From an uncultured Desulfatibacillum sp. (GTDB lineage Bacteria > Desulfobacterota > Desulfobacteria > Desulfobacterales > SpSt-501): a DNA stretch of 64,000 nucleotides. The notes beneath the pieces were generated by a model that saw nothing but the letters and a program-made list of their open reading frames with translations, did not search any database and had not been told where the DNA came from. The translations under genes and the position numbers were made by a program. Shown in pieces: positions 6,671-39,398 of this stretch; position 1 is the stretch's first letter; every line of letters starts with the position of its first letter. The stretch covers positions 12,340 to 76,339 of the forward strand of contig CAZQUP010000005.1 of assembly GCA_964596545.1 (NCBI GenBank). The letters run 5' to 3'.

Positions 6671-8428
6671 TCAGAGCGTTTCGGCCAGCTCCCGGTACTC
6701 GGCGAGGCGGTTGCGGATTCGTTCGATCGCCGAGAGCCGTTCGTTGAGATGGGAGAGGGTCGCCGAGACCTGGGTTTCGCTTTGCTCTTTGAGGGCGACC
6801 GCACGTCGGAGCGCCTCGCGGATGGTGGAAAGGGTCAGGTCGGCTTTCTCCTCGAGCGATCGCTGGAACCTGCGGGTGGTCTCCTCGATGCGGCGGAGGA
6901 GATCGTAGCGCACCCGGCCGCAGTGACGCTCGAAGATCTCCCGGGCCATCGCCTTGATCCGCCTGAGAATCAAGCCTCGGGTGACGATCAGGGGCATCGC
7001 CGAGCGGAAGCCCAAGCGGATCAGCCCGATCGCGTCGGGATCTTCCTTGAGGAGGAAGTAGAAATCGCTGCGGCCGGTCAGCTTCTCGACGGAGGTGAAG
7101 GGCTTGAGCTCCACCGCAAAGAGGCCGGCGGCGAGCTCCACGAAGGCCGTGATCCTCCGGTTGGTGCGCTCGGCGAGATCGAGATAGACCGCTTCCAGCG
7201 CCTCGGCCAGCCGGCGTGCCGTCCGGTCACGGAAGCCGGAAAAAATCTCCACGATTTCCCGGTAGAGGCCCTCCTCGAGCTTGGATTCGAGTTCCCGGCC
7301 TTCCCGGGTCGTCTGGACCTGTTCGCGGAAACGCGCTTCGAGGCCTGCCTGGAGGCGGGGGATCTCCGCCGCGGAGAGCTGCGCCAGGTCGGCATCCAGG
7401 CTCTCGTGCAGTTTGCGGATCCGACCGTTCAGGATGAAGCGGTGCTCGTCACGCTCCTCTTCGATCCGACGCACGGAGTCTTCGAACCGTGCGATTTTCG
7501 CGCGCAGCTCTTCGAGGCTCAGCTTGGCCGCCTGCTGCTCGAGCTTCCAGGCCATGCTCTCGTCGGACACGAAGCGCAACAGCGAAGCGGTCATGCTCTG
7601 CAGGAACGTCTTGCCTTTCTCGCGCTGGAGCCAGCCGCGCAGATGTTCCTCGAAGGCGGGCAGGCCGGAGCGCAGCCATTGATTCTCGTCCTTTCCAAGA
7701 CGGCCTTCGAGCGCCAACCTGGCCGATACCGGCCAGACCTTCACCGTCCGGCGCAGATCCTGCTCCAGGACGGAGGCGGTGAAGGCGATCGCCTCCGCCA
7801 GGTCTTTATCGCCGACGGCATCGGCCTTGTTGAGCACGAAAAAGAGCTGGTCCACATAGCCGCGCACTTCGCGGAGGAAGCGGTGCTCCGAGGCGCTGAG
7901 CGGCGGATCTGCGGTGACCACGAAAATTCCGGCATCGACGTGCGGGAGGTAGTTGTAAGCGACCTCGGTGTTGTGGTCGAAGACCGAGCCGACCCCGGGG
8001 GTGTCGATGATGCGCACGCCGTCGCGCAGGAGCGGGCTGGGGAAAAAGACCTCAACCTCCTTGACCTGCAGGCCGTTTTTCGGATTCGCCCGCTCGGTCA
8101 CGAAGCGGTGGATCTCGGCCAGGGGGACCTCCTCGCGGCGGCCGTCCAGGTAAAGGACGGCCGCCGCGGGAGTTTCGCCGTAGCCGATGCGGGTGACGAT
8201 CGAGGTGAGCGGCACGATCGCCGTGGGGAGGATCTCGGCGCCCAGCAGGGCATTGATCAGAGTGGATTTCCCGCGTTTGAACTGCCCCATGACCACGAGA
8301 TGAAAGTGCCGCCCCTCGAGCTTGGCGCGCAATTCCTCGAGTCGGCGGTGGCCGTCGCCGGAGCGGCAGGCCAGCTCCTCGAGGATTTCGCCCAAAGCGC
8401 CCTTGATCGTCCCGTAATCCGCGGCCAT
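6671..8428 (-). CDS. Dynamin-family GTPase (bacterial dynamin-like protein)
   Basis: P-loop GQFKRGKSTLINALLG, DTPG, NKAD, and a long helical stalk. ATG at 8428 has a GGGGGAGAAG RBS; the ORF-track start at 8488 has none. Confidence 0.8.
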   Translation of the reverse strand: MAADYGTIKGALGEILEELACRSGDGHRRLEELRAKLEGRHFHLVVMGQFKRGKSTLINALLGAEILPTAIVPLTSIVTRIGYGETPAAAVLYLDGRREEVPLAEIHRFVTERANPKNGLQVKEVEVFFPSPLLRDGVRIIDTPGVGSVFDHNTEVAYNYLPHVDAGIFVVTADPPLSASEHRFLREVRGYVDQLFFVLNKADAVGDKDLAEAIAFTASVLEQDLRRTVKVWPVSARLALEGRLGKDENQWLRSGLPAFEEHLRGWLQREKGKTFLQSMTASLLRFVSDESMAWKLEQQAAKLSLEELRAKIARFEDSVRRIEEERDEHRFILNGRIRKLHESLDADLAQLSAAEIPRLQAGLEARFREQVQTTREGRELESKLEEGLYREIVEIFSGFRDRTARRLAEALEAVYLDLAERTNRRITAFVELAAGLFAVELKPFTSVEKLTGRSDFYFLLKEDPDAIGLIRLGFRSAMPLIVTRGLILRRIKAMAREIFERHCGRVRYDLLRRIEETTRRFQRSLEEKADLTLSTIREALRRAVALKEQSETQVSATLSHLNERLSAIERIRNRLAEYRELAETL

Positions 8429-8600
8429 CTCTTCTCCCCCAAACAAAATGACCTCTACCGGAGAAGCCTTGCTCCCAGTAGAGGTCATCAGCCCTTGAAG
8501 GGGCGGTTGGGGCTGACCTCATAGCCCTGTTTTGTTCATTTCTACCTTTCGGTCATCTGCCTGTCAAGATCGCCCGCCCGGTTTTTTTCGATCATTTTTC

Positions 8601-10182: not shown

Positions 10183-10407
10183 AACGCAGCGCTTTACGGG
10201 GCGGAGGATCGCTGATATAAGGTTCGGCCTCGGGGATGGAGTCCCCCTTACAACCGCCCGACCGGGCTGATGACTCCTGCCGCATCCCCTTTTTTTGCGG
10301 CGGAGTCGCCCGGAATGGGGGCATTTCGGAGCGCCGCCGCCAGAGGCGGCTTTTTCTTTGGGCGGTGCGGCCGCTACGCCCGGCAGAAAGGAGTATCGAG
10401 AGTTCCC

Positions 10408-11631
10408 ATGGAAGCCTTCTTCGTCACCGCGGCCGTCTGGCTGGCCCTCGCCGTCATCTCCTCCGTCATCGCCTACCACCTGAAAATCTCGATTGCGCTC
10501 GTCGAAATCTGCGTGGGGGTCCTTGCCGCCGCGGCGGCGAGCCGGTTGGGCCTCTTCGAGGCGCTCGGCACGAACGAAACCTGGCTTAAGTTTCTCGCCT
10601 CCTCGGGGGCCGTCCTGCTCACCTTTCTCGCCGGAGCCGAACTCGAGCCCGAGGTCATCCGCACCAAGTGGAAAGAGGTGAGCGTCGTCGGCCTGATCGG
10701 CTTTTTCGCTCCCTTTCTCGGCTGCGCGGCGCTCGCCTACTGGGTTTTGGGCTGGGACGCCCGTGCGAGCTGGCTCGGCGGAATCGCGCTCTCCACGACC
10801 TCGATGGCGGTCGTCTATGCGGTAATGCTCGAAACCGGCTTCAACCGGACCGAGTTCGGCAAGGGGATCCTCGGAGCCTGCTTCATCAACGATCTGGGAA
10901 CGGTGCTCGCCCTGGGTCTCATGTTCGCCCCGTTCACCTACCGCACGATCGTCTTTGTCGTGATGAGCGTCGCCGTCCTGTCCCTTCTTCCCTCGCTCAC
11001 GGGGCTGCTCACCCGCATCTACGCCCACCGCACGGCGGCCATCCGCACGAAGTGGATCCTGCTCGTCTTGATGGGGCTGGGTGCGCTCGCCCTGTGGTCG
11101 GGAAGCGAGGCGGTTCTACCCGCCTATCTCGCCGGCATGATCCTCGCCGGCAGCGCAGCACGCGACACCTTCTGGGTGCGGCGCATCCGCACGCTCACCG
11201 TCGGCTTCCTCACCCCGTTTTACTTTCTGCGTGCGGGAACCCTCGTTTCGCTTCCGGCGCTCTTCACCGCGCCGCTCGTCCTGCTCGTGCTTCTCGGAGG
11301 CAAGGTCGTATCCAAGATCTTCGGGCTCTACCCCTTCGTCGCCCTCTTCCGCCGCGATCGAAACGAGCGCTGGTACTACACGCTGCTCATGTCCACGGGG
11401 TTGACCTTCGGTACGATCTCCGCCCTCTACGGCTACGCGAACGGGATCGTGAACCAGGAGCAGTACTCGTTTCTCATCACCGCGGTGATCGGAAGCGCCG
11501 TCATCCCCACGCTGATCGCCGGCCTGGCCTTCCTGCCGCGGCACCTGCTCCCCGAAGCCGAAGCGCAGGCCGCCGCGGTCGTGCCGGTATGCACCCCCGA
11601 ATCGCAGAACGGAGACCTGGCCGAAGAGTAA
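10408..11631 (+). CDS. Cation:proton antiporter (CPA2 / Na+-H+ exchanger family)
   Basis: Polytopic, begins MEAFFVTAAVWLALAVISS. ATG at 10408 is preceded by AAAGGAG. The upstream part of the track ORF is low complexity. Confidence 0.7.
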   Translation: MEAFFVTAAVWLALAVISSVIAYHLKISIALVEICVGVLAAAAASRLGLFEALGTNETWLKFLASSGAVLLTFLAGAELEPEVIRTKWKEVSVVGLIGFFAPFLGCAALAYWVLGWDARASWLGGIALSTTSMAVVYAVMLETGFNRTEFGKGILGACFINDLGTVLALGLMFAPFTYRTIVFVVMSVAVLSLLPSLTGLLTRIYAHRTAAIRTKWILLVLMGLGALALWSGSEAVLPAYLAGMILAGSAARDTFWVRRIRTLTVGFLTPFYFLRAGTLVSLPALFTAPLVLLVLLGGKVVSKIFGLYPFVALFRRDRNERWYYTLLMSTGLTFGTISALYGYANGIVNQEQYSFLITAVIGSAVIPTLIAGLAFLPRHLLPEAEAQAAAVVPVCTPESQNGDLAEE

Positions 11632-15596: not shown

Positions 15597-15878
15597 GTGG
15601 AAAATTTCTCGAGATGCGGCGTGGCATGCTGCCAGGTCGAGGCGATCATCAGCGTGGACGATAAGGGCCAGATGGTTCTGCCCAAGGCGGTGCGCGAGCG
15701 CGCGGGCATCCGGCCCGGAGAAAAGCTCGCCTTGATCGGCTGGCAAAAAGAGGGGGGAATCTGCTGCCTCGGCCTGATCAAGGCCGAATCGCTCGCGGAG
15801 ATGGTGCAACAACTGCTCGGACCTTTGATGAAAGACATCACAGGCCCAACCGGGCCGAAGGCGGGAGACGACGGATGA
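15597..15878 (+). CDS. Cysteine-rich AbrB/MazE/SpoVT-domain protein
   Basis: GTG start. The [24 protein letters not shown] swapped-hairpin motif is flanked by C7, C11-C12 and a second vicinal CC pair. ATGA overlap with arsM. Confidence 0.6.
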
Positions 15879-16705
15879 ACGAAAAAATCAAACAACAGGT
15901 GCGCGAAGGCTACGGACGGATCGCCCGGGGGGAGGATTTCTCCTGCTGCGGCGGGGGGTCTTCCTGCTGCGGCGGAGGCCTCTCGAGCCGCGGGATCGCC
16001 GAAAAGATCGGCTATTCCCCGGCGGATCTGGAGCAGGTGCCGGAGGGGGCGAACCTGGGACTGGGCTGCGGCAACCCGGTGGCTCTGGCCGCTCTTGCCG
16101 AAGGTCAGACCGTCCTCGATTTGGGATCCGGCGCAGGATTCGATTGCTTCCTCGCCGCACGCGCGGTCGGGCCGACCGGACGCGTGATCGGCGTCGATAT
16201 GACCCCGGAGATGATCGCCAAAGCCCGCACGAACGCGGAGCGGGCGAAAGCCCGCAACGTCGAGTTTCGGCTGGGCGAGATCGAGGCGCTGCCGGTCGCC
16301 GACGGCACGATCGATGTGATCCTCTCGAACTGCGTCATCAACCTCTCCCCCGATAAAGCCCGGGTTTTCGCCGAGGCCTACCGGGTGCTCAAGCCCGGAG
16401 GGGTGCTCGCCGTCTCGGACATCGTTCTTAAAAAGCCGCTGCCGCCGGCGCTCGCCTCCTCCGTTTCCGCCTACGTCGGTTGCATCGCCGGTGCGAGCCT
16501 CAAGGAAGACTATCTCGCCCTGCTCGAGGCCGCGGGTTTCGCCGCGGTGGAGGTCGTCGAGGAAACTCCGTTTTACGCGATGGAAGAAGCCGCCGATCCT
16601 CTTTTAGAGAAAATCCGCGAAGAGGCGAGGCTCTCCAAACGGGAACTGGAGGCGGCGGCGCAATCCGTGGTGAGTCTCAAGCTGCGGGCGCGGAAAGCTC
16701 CTTGA
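15875..16705 (+). CDS. arsM: Arsenite S-adenosylmethionine methyltransferase
   Basis: N-terminal CCGG..CCGG cysteines, [13 protein letters not shown] motif, and the characteristic [10 protein letters not shown] cysteine. Confidence 0.85.
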
Positions 16706-25943: not shown

Positions 25944-26246
25944 TCAGGCCATGGGGAAAAACCCCCGCTTTTCCAGTTTCCGGCCGGGAAGGAGCCGGGC
26001 ATGGGGAAGGATCTTCAACAGAACCTCTTCGTTCATCGGCAGCCGGCGGCATGAGCCCTGGTTGCTGAAAATCACCTCGTCTGCGAGGCGCACCTCGAAG
26101 ATCCCGTTGTGCCCGTCCACGAGTTCGGCCCGGAGGCCGAAGAAGGTTTCGATGGCTGCAGCCAGACTGACCGCACGCTCACGAAAGCCTCATTCCAGGC
26201 AGTAAAGAATACGGATGCGGGGCTCGCCGCCCGTCTTCGATTCCAT
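25944..26246 (-). CDS. Rdx-family (SelW/SelT-like) selenoprotein candidate; in-frame UGA (26190-26192) read as Sec
   Basis: ATG 26246 follows AAGGAG by 8 nt. Read-through gives RIRILYCLE-U-GFRERAVSLAAAIETFFG...GHNGIFEV...RLP, i.e. CxxU at the Rdx redox motif. 100 codons, stop at 25944. Absent from the ORF track. Confidence 0.7.
26145..26192 (-). other. In-frame UGA plus candidate bacterial SECIS stem-loop
   Basis: The 45 nt after the UGA can be drawn by hand as an imperfect hairpin. Outer GG(C)UUUCG pairs with CGAAACC; the inner helix ends in UGCGG/CUGCA around loop UCAGUCUGG. Confidence 0.4.
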
Positions 26247-26281
26247 ACGGCTTTCTCCTTTCCTGAAGAAAATCGTAAAGT

Positions 26282-26608
26282 TCAGGCGAAAATCCGACGC
26301 AAGGCCTCTTCCAGGGGGCCCCACTCGTTTTCGAGAACCTCGATGCCGCGGGCCCTGAGCCATTCCTTGTGAAAGCTCCAGATTCCGTTACATACCACCT
26401 TGCCTACCTCCTGTTCCACGAGAAACCGACAGAGCTCCCAGGGGTCCTCGGCGCGCAGGGCCTGGAATTTCGGTCTCCGATCGCTCTTTGTCCCCTCGAG
26501 GAACAACACCTCGTCACAAAATCCGAAGCAGGGGGCGATCCGCTTGTTCAAGAGGATCACGGCGATCCGATCCACTCTAACCTCGCCTGGCCGGTTGCCT
26601 GGGAGCAC
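26282..26608 (-). CDS. NifB/NifX-family (dinitrogenase FeMo-cofactor-binding domain) protein
   Basis: IAPCFGFCDEVLFLE ... KVVCNGI ... GIEVL pattern. The true start may be GTG at 26575. Confidence 0.55.
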   Translation of the reverse strand: MLPGNRPGEVRVDRIAVILLNKRIAPCFGFCDEVLFLEGTKSDRRPKFQALRAEDPWELCRFLVEQEVGKVVCNGIWSFHKEWLRARGIEVLENEWGPLEEALRRIFA

Positions 26609-38132: not shown

Positions 38133-39398
38133 TCAAGGGCAGACGATGATGTTCCGCGCCCAGAGGCAATCGCCGCAGGTGGGATGGCGGTTGCCGAAGC
38201 AGTCCTCCTCGTTCGACTCGGAAAAGTCGCAGCCGCCGCAGTGGACGCAGGGGGAAAAGTCGAAATCGAGCACGCGGCGGCGGAAGCTTCGGTATTCCTC
38301 CCGGTTCCAGATCGCGGCGATCTCCTCGGTGGCGATGTTGCCCACCACCCAGCGCCGGATCCGTTTTTCGCGCCCCAGGACGAAGCAGCGGTAGGAATGC
38401 ATGAGGGGAATGCAGGGGCTGACGCCGCCGTCCCAGGCGACGGCGGCGGCCCCCTGCTCGACGAAGCGGCAATGCCCATCGGCCTGAGGGTTGCGCGGCC
38501 GCGGCGACAACGGCTCGGCCGCGCAGCCGGACCAGAAGAGCTCGTTCAGGGCCTGGAGATTCTCCGGCCGGGCATCCACCCGCGGGGCGGTTACCCGCGG
38601 GTGGAAGGGAGAGCCGCTGGTCGTCCAAGGCTTTTCGGCCGACATCCAATAGAGGATTTCCTCTTTCAACTCCTCCGTATAGGGCATCAGGTTCGTGAGG
38701 ATGATGAAAGCGGCCCCCATCTCGAACGAGAGCCGTCGAAGCCCCTTCAGCTCACTCAAATTTTCGCGCGTGAGCACGAATTCGATGCCGATCTCGGGCT
38801 TCGCCCGACGCCGTTCGTGGCGCAACAGGCGCAGCTCACGCAAATTCTCCTGGACCGCCTTCAGATCCGCCCCCCCGTGTCCAGCGGCGTGGCCCGCGGG
38901 GGAAACCCCGTCCACGGAGACCACCAGGCGGTCCAGACCGGCCGTGAGCAAATCGAGGGACATCGGACGCGAAAGCAGCAGGCCGTTGGTGACGAGCTCC
39001 GTCTCCGCGCCCAGGGCGGAGGCGGCGGCGACCATCTCCGCGATCCGGGGGTGCAACAGGGGCTCACCCATGCCCCAAAAAGACATGGCGCGAAACGAGG
39101 GGACCCGCTGAAGCGATTCGATCAGGCGCTCGAAAAGGTCCATCGCGAGGGTTCCGCTCGGCTCATCCCAACTTCTGCGGATACAGCTCCGGCAGTCGAG
39201 GTTGCAGCGTGTAGTCGGCTCGAGATAGATTTTCGCAAGCGGGGGATCCTGGGGAAAAACCAGCAACCCATGCGGGCCGGGGCGGACTTCCACCGCCGCT
39301 CCGGGCTTGAGACCCCAGCGTCTCCTGAGGGCCTCGGGAAGCACCAAGCGCCCTTCGGCGTCAAGTTCCAGGACAAGGGAAGGATCGGTCTCAGACAT
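38133..39398 (-). CDS. Radical SAM/SPASM enzyme with N-terminal AbrB/SpoVT-like domain
   Basis: LDAEGRLVLPEALRRRWGLKPG swapped-hairpin motif, CNLDCRSC, and a C-terminal Cys-rich SPASM region (CVHCGGC...CGDC). Confidence 0.8.
   Translation of the reverse strand: MSETDPSLVLELDAEGRLVLPEALRRRWGLKPGAAVEVRPGPHGLLVFPQDPPLAKIYLEPTTRCNLDCRSCIRRSWDEPSGTLAMDLFERLIESLQRVPSFRAMSFWGMGEPLLHPRIAEMVAAASALGAETELVTNGLLLSRPMSLDLLTAGLDRLVVSVDGVSPAGHAAGHGGADLKAVQENLRELRLLRHERRRAKPEIGIEFVLTRENLSELKGLRRLSFEMGAAFIILTNLMPYTEELKEEILYWMSAEKPWTTSGSPFHPRVTAPRVDARPENLQALNELFWSGCAAEPLSPRPRNPQADGHCRFVEQGAAAVAWDGGVSPCIPLMHSYRCFVLGREKRIRRWVVGNIATEEIAAIWNREEYRSFRRRVLDFDFSPCVHCGGCDFSESNEEDCFGNRHPTCGDCLWARNIIVCP

What the first reader, a model, noticed from the sequence alone, without database searches (positions are those of the whole stretch)
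25944..26246. Unannotated Rdx/SelW-like selenoprotein gene with an in-frame UGA at the CxxU position
The six-frame track shows nothing in the 330-nt gap between the NifX-like gene and cfa. On the minus strand, ATG 26246 lies 8 nt after AAGGAG. It opens a frame reading MESKTGGEPRIRILYCLE, then UGA (26192-26190). The frame continues GFRERAVSLAAAIETFFGLRAELVDGHNGIFEVRLADEVIFSNQGSCRRLPMNEEVLLKILPH... to a stop at 25944, 100 codons in all. The layout is that of the Rdx (SelW/SelT/SelH) thioredoxin-like fold: beta strand, YCxx(U/C), helix, then G-x-G-x-FEV and a (R/K)-x-P segment. The UGA falls exactly where the second redox residue (Cys or Sec) sits. The 3' part has no good start of its own, and the 5' part alone would be an 18-aa peptide. 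Bacterial SelW-like selenoproteins are known from anaerobic Deltaproteobacteria-type genomes. The arsenic, sulfur and thiol-redox context makes a redox selenoprotein plausible.
Basis: partly seen in the sequence, partly recalled or inferred. Interest (0 to 1): 0.85.

Follow-up and report, generated by a model that had tools for sequence, protein, structure and literature searches.

The report
Missed SelW-like selenoprotein gene
This is a real but unannotated 100-codon gene for a small thioredoxin-like redox protein whose in-frame UGA almost certainly encodes selenocysteine; it belongs to the well-known bacterial SelW-like (Rdx) selenoprotein family, so it corrects an annotation rather than adding new biology.

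Summary
On the minus strand there is AAGGAG, 8 nt, ATG 26246, an in-frame TGA at 26192-26190, and a stop at 25946-25944.

- With U read as C, the product passes Pfam Rdx (40.6 bits, cut-off 22.6) and TIGR02174. The part after the UGA fails on its own.
- The UGA aligns with the second Cys of CxxC in solved Rdx structures.
- Of 83 related loci fetched, 82 keep TGA at this codon and one has Cys. Further Cys forms exist in protein databases.
- Both sides of the UGA evolve as coding sequence.
- A hairpin 22 nt after the UGA, with an A-GUC-U loop, meets all four published bacterial SECIS criteria. It is conserved across the family with compensatory changes, and it is absent from the one Cys form examined.
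- An AlphaFold model of a relative matches only SelW-related structures at the top.

Not shown: selA, selB, selD and tRNA-Sec are not in these 64 kb. Sec decoding is inferred from conservation and from Desulfobacterales affinity.

The family has been catalogued since 2004-2005. Mild extras are a long-form clade with a third conserved Cys, a C-terminal LLPG…FPMA tail, and recurrent ArsR/Acr3/thiol-redox neighbours.

The parts
25944..26246 (-). Complete CDS of the SelW-like (Rdx) selenoprotein: 100 sense codons including UGA = Sec19, plus the stop codon at 25946-25944
   Evidence: Translation. Pfam Rdx 40.6 bits, profile positions 1-68 of 74, protein residues 10-75. TIGR02174 37.8 bits. Orthologues keep the same frame and the same TGA. 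Against L003 there are 15 synonymous and 7 non-synonymous codon differences, while the flanks are only about 55% identical.
26255..26260 (-). Shine-Dalgarno sequence AAGGAG, 8 nt upstream of ATG 26246
   Evidence: Read directly from the sequence. GGAGG or AAGGAG-type sites precede the ATG in L001, L002 and L003 as well.
26190..26201 (-). Redox motif Cys16-Leu-Glu-Sec19. TGC is at 26201-26199 and TGA at 26192-26190.
   Evidence: The motif aligns with the CxxC of PDB Rdx proteins 2ljk, 3dex and 2fa8. TGA is conserved in 82 of 83 related loci, and Cys forms exist.
26148..26185 (-). Putative bacterial SECIS hairpin, nt 8-45 counting the U of UGA as 1. The upper stem is nt 18-24 paired with nt 30-36 (26175-26169 with 26163-26157). 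The apical loop is G26-U27-C28 (26167-26165), closed by A25-U29.
   Evidence: Minimum-free-energy folds have z about -2.4. All four bSECIS model criteria from PMC13188914 are met: 3-nt loop (5 nt if the A-U pair is opened), 8 contiguous bp, 22-nt spacing, -12.1 kcal/mol. Across the family, 85% of cells pair against 17-65% for the slid controls, with compensatory changes at pairs 21-33 and 22-32. RNAalifold finds the same helix independently. The loop codon is AGT or GGT in 39 of 40 distinct sequences, and Ser is never coded UCN. The Cys form L049 lacks the hairpin.
26091..26105 (-). G48-I-F-E-V52, the GxFE(I/V) signature of the Rdx family
   Evidence: Invariant in the close orthologues and nearly invariant in the wider alignment. 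The motif is described for the Rdx family in PMC10650576.
26037..26051 (-). Cys66-Arg-Arg-Leu-Pro70: a third conserved Cys just before the conserved Pro, in the beta4-alpha2 loop. It is specific to the long-form clade.
   Evidence: Present in all long-form loci in the forms NQGxC..(L/I)P, NQ(S/K)xC.. or NKSEC... It is absent from the soil short form, which reads NETTYRFP. The loop position comes from the AF2 model of P0003.
25947..25994 (-). C-terminal extension LLPGRKLEKRGFFPMA beyond the Rdx domain, containing the LLPG and FPMA motifs
   Evidence: Conserved in the long-form clade. It lies outside the Pfam match, which ends at residue 75. In the model of the relative it has low confidence and is probably disordered.
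26282..26608 (-). Upstream 108-aa gene, probably co-transcribed, weakly similar to NifX/NifB-type Nitro_FeMo-Co domains
   Evidence: PF02579 scores 23 bits, below the cut-off of 26.3. The alignment covers the full domain and the hit recurs in the L001 orthologue. The gene is conserved directly upstream in L001, L002 and L003. No terminator-like site separates it from the Rdx gene.

Best explanation
The locus is an intact, expressed-type gene for a 100-residue SelW-like (Rdx family) selenoprotein. Translation starts at ATG 26246. At UGA 26192-26190 the ribosome is recoded by SelB-GTP-Sec-tRNA(Sec), which binds the hairpin directly downstream in the mRNA (G26/U27 in the apical loop). Selenocysteine is inserted, and translation continues to the stop at 25944. 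The product has a thioredoxin-like beta1-alpha1-beta2-beta3-beta4-alpha2 fold. The Cys16-x-x-Sec19 pair sits between beta1 and alpha1 and cycles between the selenol/thiol state and the selenenylsulfide state, so the protein acts as a thiol/selenol oxidoreductase. Shown here: the gene structure, family membership, Sec/Cys column, fold of the clade, and a conserved SECIS-type hairpin. Inferred: actual Sec insertion, because the machinery was not seen. Also inferred: the redox mechanism, by homology, and a role in the thiol and metal(loid) stress response, from recurring ArsR/Acr3/ArsP/TauE/CcdA/thioredoxin/rhodanese neighbours of the long-form clade.
For: The sequence facts are. The HMM scores are above the curated cut-offs only when the UGA is read through. 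CxxC of the solved Rdx proteins aligns on C16 and U19. TGA is conserved at this codon in L001, L002, L003 and 79 of 80 metagenome loci spanning about 40-92% identity. Cys-containing homologues exist: L049, P0086, P0108, P0068. In the exhaustive search, most database relatives begin 1-4 residues into the match, which is what truncation at the UGA produces. JGI labels such fragments 'predicted Rdx family selenoprotein'. Codon-position variability runs pos3 > pos1 > pos2 both before and after the UGA. Synonymous differences outnumber non-synonymous ones against L003, while the flanks have diverged. The hairpin meets the bSECIS criteria quoted from PMC13188914, shows covariation, shows loop codon bias, and is absent from a Cys form. 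TGA is an ordinary stop for many genes in the window, so the organism does not use an alternative genetic code. The AF2 model of the long-form relative P0003 has the Rdx topology. Its top 23 PDB matches are all SelW-related/Rdx structures, with target-normalised TM of 0.74-0.84 for the bacterial entries. The closest genome is a Desulfobacterales MAG. Deltaproteobacteria are the most selenoprotein-rich bacteria, and SelW-like selenoproteins are recorded in them (PMC1794560; PMC12013277).
Against: No selA, selB, selD or tRNA-Sec lies in the 64 kb or in the related loci. No second selenoprotein gene was detected in the window that would prove Sec decoding in this organism. For a single sequence the hairpin is only modestly more stable than shuffles, with z about -2.4. 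Part of its conservation could come from the conserved A-(A/S)-(G/S)-L-A-A peptide it encodes. Many family members have one internal mismatch in the stem and fail a strict contiguous-stem count; only 9 of 41 pass that count. There is no expression or selenium-incorporation data.
Confidence: 0.9

Rival explanations
1. The gene is a pseudogene or decaying gene. A TGC/TGT to TGA nonsense mutation killed a Cys-type Rdx gene, or the organism lost the Sec machinery and the gene is no longer functional.
For: No Sec machinery genes are visible in the window. TGA differs from the Cys codons TGC and TGT by a single base.
Against: The same TGA is present in 82 of 83 homologous loci from very different lineages and habitats. 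Coding-type substitution patterns persist on both sides of the TGA. The start codon, the Shine-Dalgarno sequence and the SECIS-type hairpin are intact. The closest relative, L003, keeps everything at 92% amino-acid identity while the flanking DNA has diverged.
Confidence: 0.03
2. Only the downstream ORF is a real gene: 58 aa from GTG 26120, as gene callers annotate in orthologues. The upstream 18 codons and the TGA would then be non-coding leader sequence.
For: Databases hold the 58-aa products P0001 and P0002. A GTG exists at 26120.
Against: The 58-aa piece scores only 14.3 bits against Rdx and the 81-aa piece 21.3 bits, both below the cut-off. The full read-through scores 40.6 bits from profile position 1. 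The stretch between ATG and GTG is conserved as protein with synonymous changes. A 58-aa fragment would lack beta1, the redox motif and alpha1 of the fold. No Shine-Dalgarno sequence precedes the GTG.
Confidence: 0.02
3. The UGA is read through, but not as Sec. It could be read by near-cognate tRNA (Trp or Cys) or by Cys loaded on tRNA-Sec, giving a CxxC/CxxW protein. Or the organism uses a TGA-sense genetic code.
For: Some database entries of relatives show W at this column, for example P0015 YCVEWGF and P0112. This shows that some pipelines translated these genes with TGA = Trp.
Against: Many genes in the window terminate at TGA, so TGA is a normal stop here. Trp in a CxxC-type redox motif makes no functional sense. 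The conserved hairpin with a G-U loop at a fixed distance is the hallmark of SelB-dependent recoding. The W forms are best explained as code-4 calls on short metagenome contigs.
Confidence: 0.04

Closest known systems
Bacterial SelW-like (SELENOW-like) selenoproteins: PF10262 Rdx, TIGR02174 CXXU_selWTH. Catalogued in the Sargasso Sea and GOS selenoproteomes and in Deltaproteobacteria (PMC1088965, PMC2398784, PMC1794560, PMC13188914 Table 1).
   Same: A small protein of about 80-100 aa. The CxxU motif follows beta1. The GxFEV motif is present. The SECIS hairpin lies directly downstream of the UGA within the coding region. Sec forms far outnumber Cys forms. The gene occurs in an anaerobic deltaproteobacterial-type genome.
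   Different: It belongs to a long-form sub-clade with a third conserved Cys (C66, four residues before the conserved Pro) and a roughly 25-residue C-terminal extension ending in LLPG…FPMA. It scores below the equivalog cut-off of NF041051 (53 against 88), so it is not the Campylobacter-type protein. Its neighbours recur from an ArsR/Acr3/ArsP/TauE/CcdA/thioredoxin/rhodanese pool. I did not find that association described in the papers read.
Cys-containing bacterial Rdx proteins with solved structures: 2fa8 Atu0228, 3dex SAV_2001, 2ojl, 2obk, 2oka, 2p0g.
   Same: The same fold, with target-normalised TM of 0.74-0.84 for the model of a clade member. The redox motif is at the same position.
   Different: Those proteins carry CxxC (YCTQCRW) rather than CxxU. 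They have no SECIS, no third Cys and no LLPG…FPMA tail. Sequence identity is only about 20%.
Mammalian SELENOW and MIEN1 (2npb, 2ljk).
   Same: The Rdx fold, a CxxU/CxxC motif, and a presumed thiol-oxidoreductase role with no defined substrate.
   Different: The eukaryotic SECIS lies in the 3' UTR. The eukaryotic partners (14-3-3, glutathione adduct) have no known bacterial counterpart. The MIEN1 hit is the best PDB sequence match, but only at E = 5e-5.
The E. coli fdhF-type bacterial SECIS and the bSECISearch consensus model.
   Same: A hairpin starting just after the UGA, a G followed by U in a small apical loop, and a loop 16-37 nt from the UGA.
   Different: From my own knowledge of fdhF, the G-U pair sits at nt 23-24 there. 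Here it sits at nt 26-27, one codon further. No bulged U was identified here. SelB binding was not tested.

Membership tests
Rdx / SelT-SelW-SelH family (PF10262, TIGR02174) | Profile-HMM score above the curated family cut-off | tested here: met
   PF10262 scores 40.6 bits against 22.6, and TIGR02174 scores 37.8 against 34.2, with U read as C. NF041051, the Campylobacter equivalog, scores 53 against 88, so that narrower membership is not met.
Rdx / SelT-SelW-SelH family (PF10262, TIGR02174) | CxxU or CxxC redox motif immediately after the first beta strand | tested here: met
   The frame reads I-L-Y-C16-L-E-U19-G-F. It aligns on YCxxC of 2ljk, 3dex and 2fa8. In the model of P0003 the motif lies between E13-18 and H23-38.
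Rdx / SelT-SelW-SelH family (PF10262, TIGR02174) | GxFE(I/V) signature (PMC10650576) | tested here: met
   G48-I-F-E-V52 is invariant among orthologues.
Rdx / SelT-SelW-SelH family (PF10262, TIGR02174) | Thioredoxin-like beta1-alpha1-beta2-beta3-beta4-alpha2 fold | tested here: inconclusive
   This is met for the long-form relative P0003, which is 43% identical to the window protein in alignment A3. Its model has core pLDDT of about 89 and its top 23 PDB matches are all Rdx structures. The window protein itself could not be submitted because of its internal stop.
Bacterial selenoprotein gene (standard bioinformatic criteria: Sec/Cys pair, conserved flanks, bSECIS) | In-frame TGA aligned with Cys in homologues, and conserved in other TGA-containing homologues | tested here: met
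   TGA is present in 82 of 83 loci. Cys is present in L049, P0086, P0108 and P0068.
Bacterial selenoprotein gene (standard bioinformatic criteria: Sec/Cys pair, conserved flanks, bSECIS) | Protein-level conservation on both sides of the TGA | tested here: met
   The codon-position pattern and synonymous/non-synonymous counts are.
Bacterial selenoprotein gene (standard bioinformatic criteria: Sec/Cys pair, conserved flanks, bSECIS) | bSECIS model: 3-9 nt apical loop, 4-16 bp upper stem, G in the first two loop positions, 16-37 nt from the UGA, MFE of -7.5 kcal/mol or lower (PMC13188914 Fig. 2) | tested here: met
   In the window the loop is GUC (A-U-closed AGUCU), the stem has 8 contiguous bp, the spacing is 22 nt, and the energy is -12.1 kcal/mol. 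Other members mostly have one internal mismatch in the stem.
Bacterial selenoprotein gene (standard bioinformatic criteria: Sec/Cys pair, conserved flanks, bSECIS) | Genome encodes SelA, SelB, SelD and tRNA-Sec | not testable with these tools
   None of these lies in the 64-kb window. The window's proteins are not on record in the contig index.
Bacterial selenoprotein gene (standard bioinformatic criteria: Sec/Cys pair, conserved flanks, bSECIS) | Selenium actually incorporated (75Se labelling or mass spectrometry) | not testable with these tools
   This needs an experiment.

The most novel reading that the evidence does not exclude
The long-form clade (CxxU plus a third conserved Cys next to the conserved Pro, plus an LLPG…FPMA tail) may be a functionally distinct SelW-like subfamily recruited to ArsR-controlled metal(loid) and thiol stress islands. 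It could, for example, bind or reduce As(III)- or Se-thiol adducts through a Cys16/Sec19/Cys66 three-ligand site, as a chaperone or reductase feeding Acr3, ArsP or TauE exporters. That would give the first defined role for a bacterial SelW-like protein. Relatives with a UxxU motif (L084) would be diselenide variants of the same chemistry.
Probability: 0.1. Interest if true: 0.6.

Novelty: new member of a known kind. Interest (0 to 1): 0.3.

Why it matters
On the practical side, the finding adds a missing gene to the annotation. It also shows again that standard gene callers either drop SelW-like selenoproteins or truncate them to 58-80-aa fragments. Some pipelines instead translate them with the wrong code, giving W at the Sec position. 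These errors distort protein databases. On the biological side, the finding implies that this Desulfobacterales-type organism decodes selenocysteine. It also places a selenol-based oxidoreductase inside an arsenic, metal and thiol stress island. The function of bacterial SelW-like proteins is still unknown. The recurring neighbourhood of the long-form clade and its third conserved Cys give a concrete hypothesis that can be tested. None of this changes the current understanding of selenoproteins.

Tried and rejected
- **Structure prediction of the window protein.** The U-to-C version is not an admissible sequence. I modelled the admissible relative P0003 instead.
- **Tracing the window's source genome.** I looked up exact neighbouring proteins (radical SAM, Acr3). 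Neither is on record.
- **Searching for a second selenoprotein in the window.** This would have been independent proof of Sec decoding. The TGA-bridged coding-signal screens returned only adjacent genes with their own starts.
- **Rfam.** There is no match at the locus at the gathering threshold or at E up to 10, only noise hits. Rfam reported no match to any family at the gathering score here.
- **tRNA-Sec.** None was found in the window or in 13 related loci.
- **Strict bSECIS scoring.** When a contiguous stem of at least 4 bp next to the loop is required, only 9 of 41 distinct family sequences pass, although the window does. The rest have the same helix with one internal mismatch, so I treat that count as too strict, not as evidence against.
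- **A fixed operon partner.** The NifX-like p108 gene is upstream only in the closest orthologues. More distant members have different neighbours, so I rejected a dedicated two-gene system.
- **Soil short-form neighbours.** They are housekeeping genes, so the stress-island context does not generalise to the whole family.

Full report
**1. Observation**

AAGGAG lies at 26260-26255, followed by an 8-nt spacer and ATG at 26246. Then come 18 codons (MESKTGGEPRIRILYCLE), TGA at 26192-26190, 81 more codons, and the stop at 25946-25944.

The mechanical ORF list shows only a 57-aa piece ending at the TGA and a 58-aa piece starting at GTG 26120. That needs softening, because gene callers do use the equivalent GTG in orthologues (P0001, P0002). 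No Shine-Dalgarno site precedes that GTG.

**2. Family assignment**

I read U as C for the searches.
- The 100-aa product scores 40.6 bits against Pfam Rdx PF10262 (cut-off 22.6; profile positions 1-68 of 74).
- The 81-aa post-UGA part scores 21.3 bits and the 58-aa ORF 14.3 bits. Both are below the cut-off.
- TIGR02174 (CXXU_selWTH) scores 37.8 bits, above its cut-off of 34.2.
- The Campylobacter equivalog NF041051 scores 53 bits, below its cut-off of 88.

A sequence search of the PDB finds only Rdx-fold proteins with E below 0.02: MIEN1 2ljk, SAV_2001 3dex, Atu0228 2fa8 and 2ojl. In the three alignments printed (2ljk, 3dex, 2fa8) the YCxxC aligns on Y15-C16-L-E-[UGA]. The GxFE(I/V) signature of the family (PMC10650576) is present as G48-IFEV52.

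**3. Comparative evidence for the UGA**

The word-indexed protein search found just two close relatives, both 58-aa fragments. Their DNA shows an ATG with a Shine-Dalgarno site, a conserved N-terminal peptide, and an in-frame TGA at the same codon:
- L001: …VRIRYCLE-TGA-GFANRA…
- L002: …RIRIRYCVE-TGA-GFYARA…

The species-representative genome collection gave one hit, a Desulfobacterales MAG (L003). It is 92% identical at the amino-acid level, has the TGA, and is fully syntenic.

A profile-guided scan of metagenome contigs gave 80 loci. Of these, 79 have TGA at this codon and one (L049) has Cys. They fall into two groups:
- A long-form group of about 100 aa from sediment-type samples, to which the window gene belongs.
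- A short-form group of about 76 aa from soil (MNIQIRYCGE-U-NYLPQ…).

An exhaustive HMMER search with the exact post-UGA translation found 107 representatives. Most begin 1-4 residues into the alignment, which is the signature of truncation at the UGA. The full-length representatives include true Cys forms (YCSECGF, YCTECGL, YCVQCDY), Ser forms, and forms with W at the Sec column. I read the W forms as TGA translated under code 4. JGI names some of the fragments 'predicted Rdx family selenoprotein', and NCBI names Cys forms 'SelT/SelW/SelH family protein'.

**4. Both halves are translated in this frame**

Among 15 long-form sequences, differences per site at codon positions 1, 2 and 3 are:
- 0.34, 0.20 and 0.49 for the nine codons before the UGA.
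- 0.37, 0.27 and 0.51 for the 23 codons between the UGA and the GTG.
- 0.29, 0.22 and 0.54 further downstream.

Against L003 there are 15 synonymous and 7 non-synonymous codon differences spread over all three segments. The 36 nt upstream and 60 nt downstream of the CDS are only about 55% identical.

TGA is the normal stop codon of many genes in the window, so an alternative genetic code is excluded.

**5. The SECIS element**

RNAfold places a hairpin directly after the UGA. For 56-80-nt windows the energies are -22.6 to -35.8 kcal/mol, with z about -2.4 against dinucleotide shuffles.

The published bacterial SECIS model is given in PMC13188914, Fig. 2. It requires a 3-9 nt apical loop, a 4-16 bp upper stem, a G in the first two loop positions (typically N1-G-[G/U]-N-N2 with N1 and N2 paired), 16-37 nt between the UGA and the loop, and an MFE of -7.5 kcal/mol or lower.

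The window has A25-G26-U27-C28-U29, which matches that pattern exactly with A and U paired. It has 8 contiguous base pairs, 22 nt of spacing, and -12.1 kcal/mol for the 30-nt core.

In an alignment of 24 distinct family sequences, the six-pair core helix (columns 19-24 with 30-35) behaves as follows:
- It is paired in 85.4% of cells, against 17-65% when the 3' partner is slid by 1-3 columns.
- The covariation score is 0.22 against 0.06 in shuffles (0 of 500 shuffles reach it).
- Pair 21-33 occurs as C-G, G-U and G-C, and both columns are third codon positions.
- Pair 22-32 occurs as G-C and U-A.

RNAalifold recovers the same helix on its own. G26 is invariant and U27 is conserved in at least 90% of sequences. 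The codon carrying them is AGT (29), GGT (10) or GGG (1) in 40 distinct sequences, and Ser is never coded UCN. This argues for constraint at the RNA level on top of the protein level. The only Cys form for which I hold DNA has no hairpin at this position, at -1.5 kcal/mol.

Caveats:
- The single-sequence z-score is modest.
- The encoded peptide A-(A/S)-(G/S)-L-A-A is itself conserved.
- Most other members carry one internal mismatch, so only 9 of 41 pass a strict contiguous-stem count.

**6. Fold**

The window protein could not be submitted for structure prediction because of its stop codon. I modelled P0003 instead, a long-form relative that is 43% identical to the window protein in alignment A3, using an alignment of admissible relatives. 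The model has mean pLDDT 77, about 89 in the core, and the order E13-18, H23-38, E43-47, E53-56, E59-63, H74-82.

Foldseek against the PDB puts 23 SelW-related/Rdx chains first: 2fa8, 2obk, 2ojl, 2oka, 3dex, 2p0g, MIEN1 and mouse SelW. For the bacterial entries the target-normalised TM is 0.74-0.84 and the rmsd is about 2 Å. Generic thioredoxins follow only after those.

The C-terminal tail has low confidence. The third conserved Cys (C66 in the window) lies in the beta4-alpha2 loop. By topology this loop is at the same end of the sheet as the CxxU loop. That is an inference, because no coordinates were available.

**7. Sec machinery and organism**

There is no tRNA at all in the window. No SelA, SelB or SelD domains appear among about 50 annotated genes. 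No second read-through candidate was found. The window's proteins are not in the contig index.

Taxonomy therefore rests on L003, a Desulfobacterales MAG with 86-96% amino-acid identity over the syntenic block. Three papers bear on whether such an organism decodes Sec:
- PMC1794560 reports that selenoprotein-rich bacteria are mostly Deltaproteobacteria or Clostridia, and it lists SelW-like selenoproteins in Desulfotalea and Geobacter lineages.

Sec decoding in this organism is therefore likely, but it is inferred.

**8. Context and function**

The window is a metal(loid) and thiol stress island. On the minus strand, the 5'-to-3' gene order running from the Rdx locus is:
- p108 (weak Nitro_FeMo-Co, 23 bits, below the 26.3 cut-off)
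- the Rdx-Sec gene
- CFA synthase
- an SBF carrier
- patatin
- an SBF/Acr3-type carrier
- ArsR
- a CCG-domain protein
- ArsP

A radical SAM gene is divergent from this cluster, followed by Usp and TauE. Further away lie Metal_resist proteins, a DsbC-like protein, MauE/DUF1573, DsbD_TM, DGC, Thioredoxin_3, a second ArsP and ArsM.

No terminator-like site separates p108, the Rdx gene and cfa.

Among more distant long-form members the neighbours vary but are drawn from the same pool:
- L013: ArsR and TauE
- L014: ArsR and CcdA
- L015/L016: ArsR and Acr3
- L012: thioredoxin and CcdA
- L005 and L009: rhodanese and MauE
- L005: an AhpD-like CMD protein
- L085: ArsP

The soil short form instead sits among housekeeping genes.

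I conclude that the protein is a selenol/thiol oxidoreductase, and that the long-form clade is probably engaged in thiol or metal(loid) stress. The substrate is unknown, as it is for the whole Rdx family (PMC10650576).

**9. Comparison with the known, and verdict**

SelW-like CxxU selenoproteins have been known in bacteria since the first prokaryotic selenoproteome surveys. [quoted passage not shown] The 2026 review lists them as 'predicted with high confidence' (PF10262, CxxU, one Sec; PMC13188914).

The window gene is therefore a new, unannotated member of a known kind. The interest is modest, at about 0.3.

Two things go slightly beyond the catalogue. The first is the long-form clade's third Cys, C-terminal tail and ars/thiol neighbourhood. 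The second is a relative, L084, whose DNA reads TAC-TGA-GTT-GAG-TGA, a UxxU motif. Its close relative L085 reads TGC…TGA. In the papers I read, UxxU is recorded for other families but not for SelW-like.

Noticed in passing
L084:169-483 (NCBI GCA_044343465.1, JAZHCK010835192.1); compare L085:1915-2237: A long-form relative of the window protein (P0003) has two in-frame TGA codons: TAC-TGA-GTT-GAG-TGA-GGC-TTC, a UxxU motif. The same AGU-UUG hairpin follows, and the first UGA is 31 nt from the loop, still inside the 16-37 nt range. Its close relative L085 (about 79% identical) reads TGC…TGA. Three other database representatives (P0055, P0060, P0092) show 'YWxxW' and may be further cases. The papers read here list SelW-like only as CxxU with one Sec. 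This is a single 668-bp contig, so sequencing error is not excluded.
   Followed up: partly
window 8472-8535 (-) and 10223-10286 (+): There are two fluoride riboswitches above the Rfam gathering score, at 46.7 and 54.5 bits. The plus-strand one precedes a Na+/H+ exchanger gene (10270-11631). The minus-strand one lies directly upstream of, and overlaps the longest-ORF start of, a 605-aa dynamin-family GTPase gene (6671-8488). As far as I know, that is not a usual fluoride-regulated gene.
   Followed up: no
L005, L009, L012, L013, L014, L015/L016, L085 (flanks of the Rdx-Sec gene): Long-form SelW-like selenoprotein genes repeatedly sit beside ArsR-family regulators, Acr3, ArsP, TauE, CcdA/DsbD, thioredoxin, rhodanese plus MauE, or an AhpD-like CMD protein. 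The soil short form (L019) sits among PfkB kinase, nucleoside hydrolase, acetyl-CoA hydrolase, SDR and RidA genes.
   Followed up: partly
P0012 (331 aa) and P0018 (328 aa), from the exhaustive protein search: Some relatives are fusions of about 330 aa. They have an Rdx domain at the N-terminus (truncated at the presumed UGA in the database entry), a Cys-rich linker, a predicted membrane segment, and a C-terminal part with CxxC-like motifs. This suggests membrane-anchored SelW-like selenoproteins.
   Followed up: no
P0015, P0041, P0079, P0112, P0116 (database proteins): Public protein collections contain SelW-like entries with Trp at the Sec position (YCVEWGF, YCSEWNY). Evidently TGA was translated as Trp on short metagenome contigs. 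This is a systematic artefact that disguises selenoproteins as 'CxxW' proteins.
   Followed up: partly
L017-L083 (soil metagenome contigs): More than 60 loci from many soil metagenomes carry a nearly identical 76-aa short-form gene, MNIQIRYCGE-U-NYLPQASSLQAAIK…. This points to one very widespread soil lineage with this selenoprotein. Some contigs are up to 430 kb.
   Followed up: no
The alignment covers the full domain, and the hit recurs in the L001 orthologue. The gene is conserved directly upstream of the Rdx gene only in the closest orthologues (L001, L002, L003).
   Followed up: partly
window 38133-39398 (-) and 15597-15878 (+): A radical SAM/SPASM protein carries an N-terminal AbrB/MazE-like (SpoVT-type) domain. 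A separate 93-aa AbrB/MazE-like protein lies directly upstream of the ArsM-like methyltransferase (15875-16705). These may be small DNA-binding regulators within the stress island.
   Followed up: no
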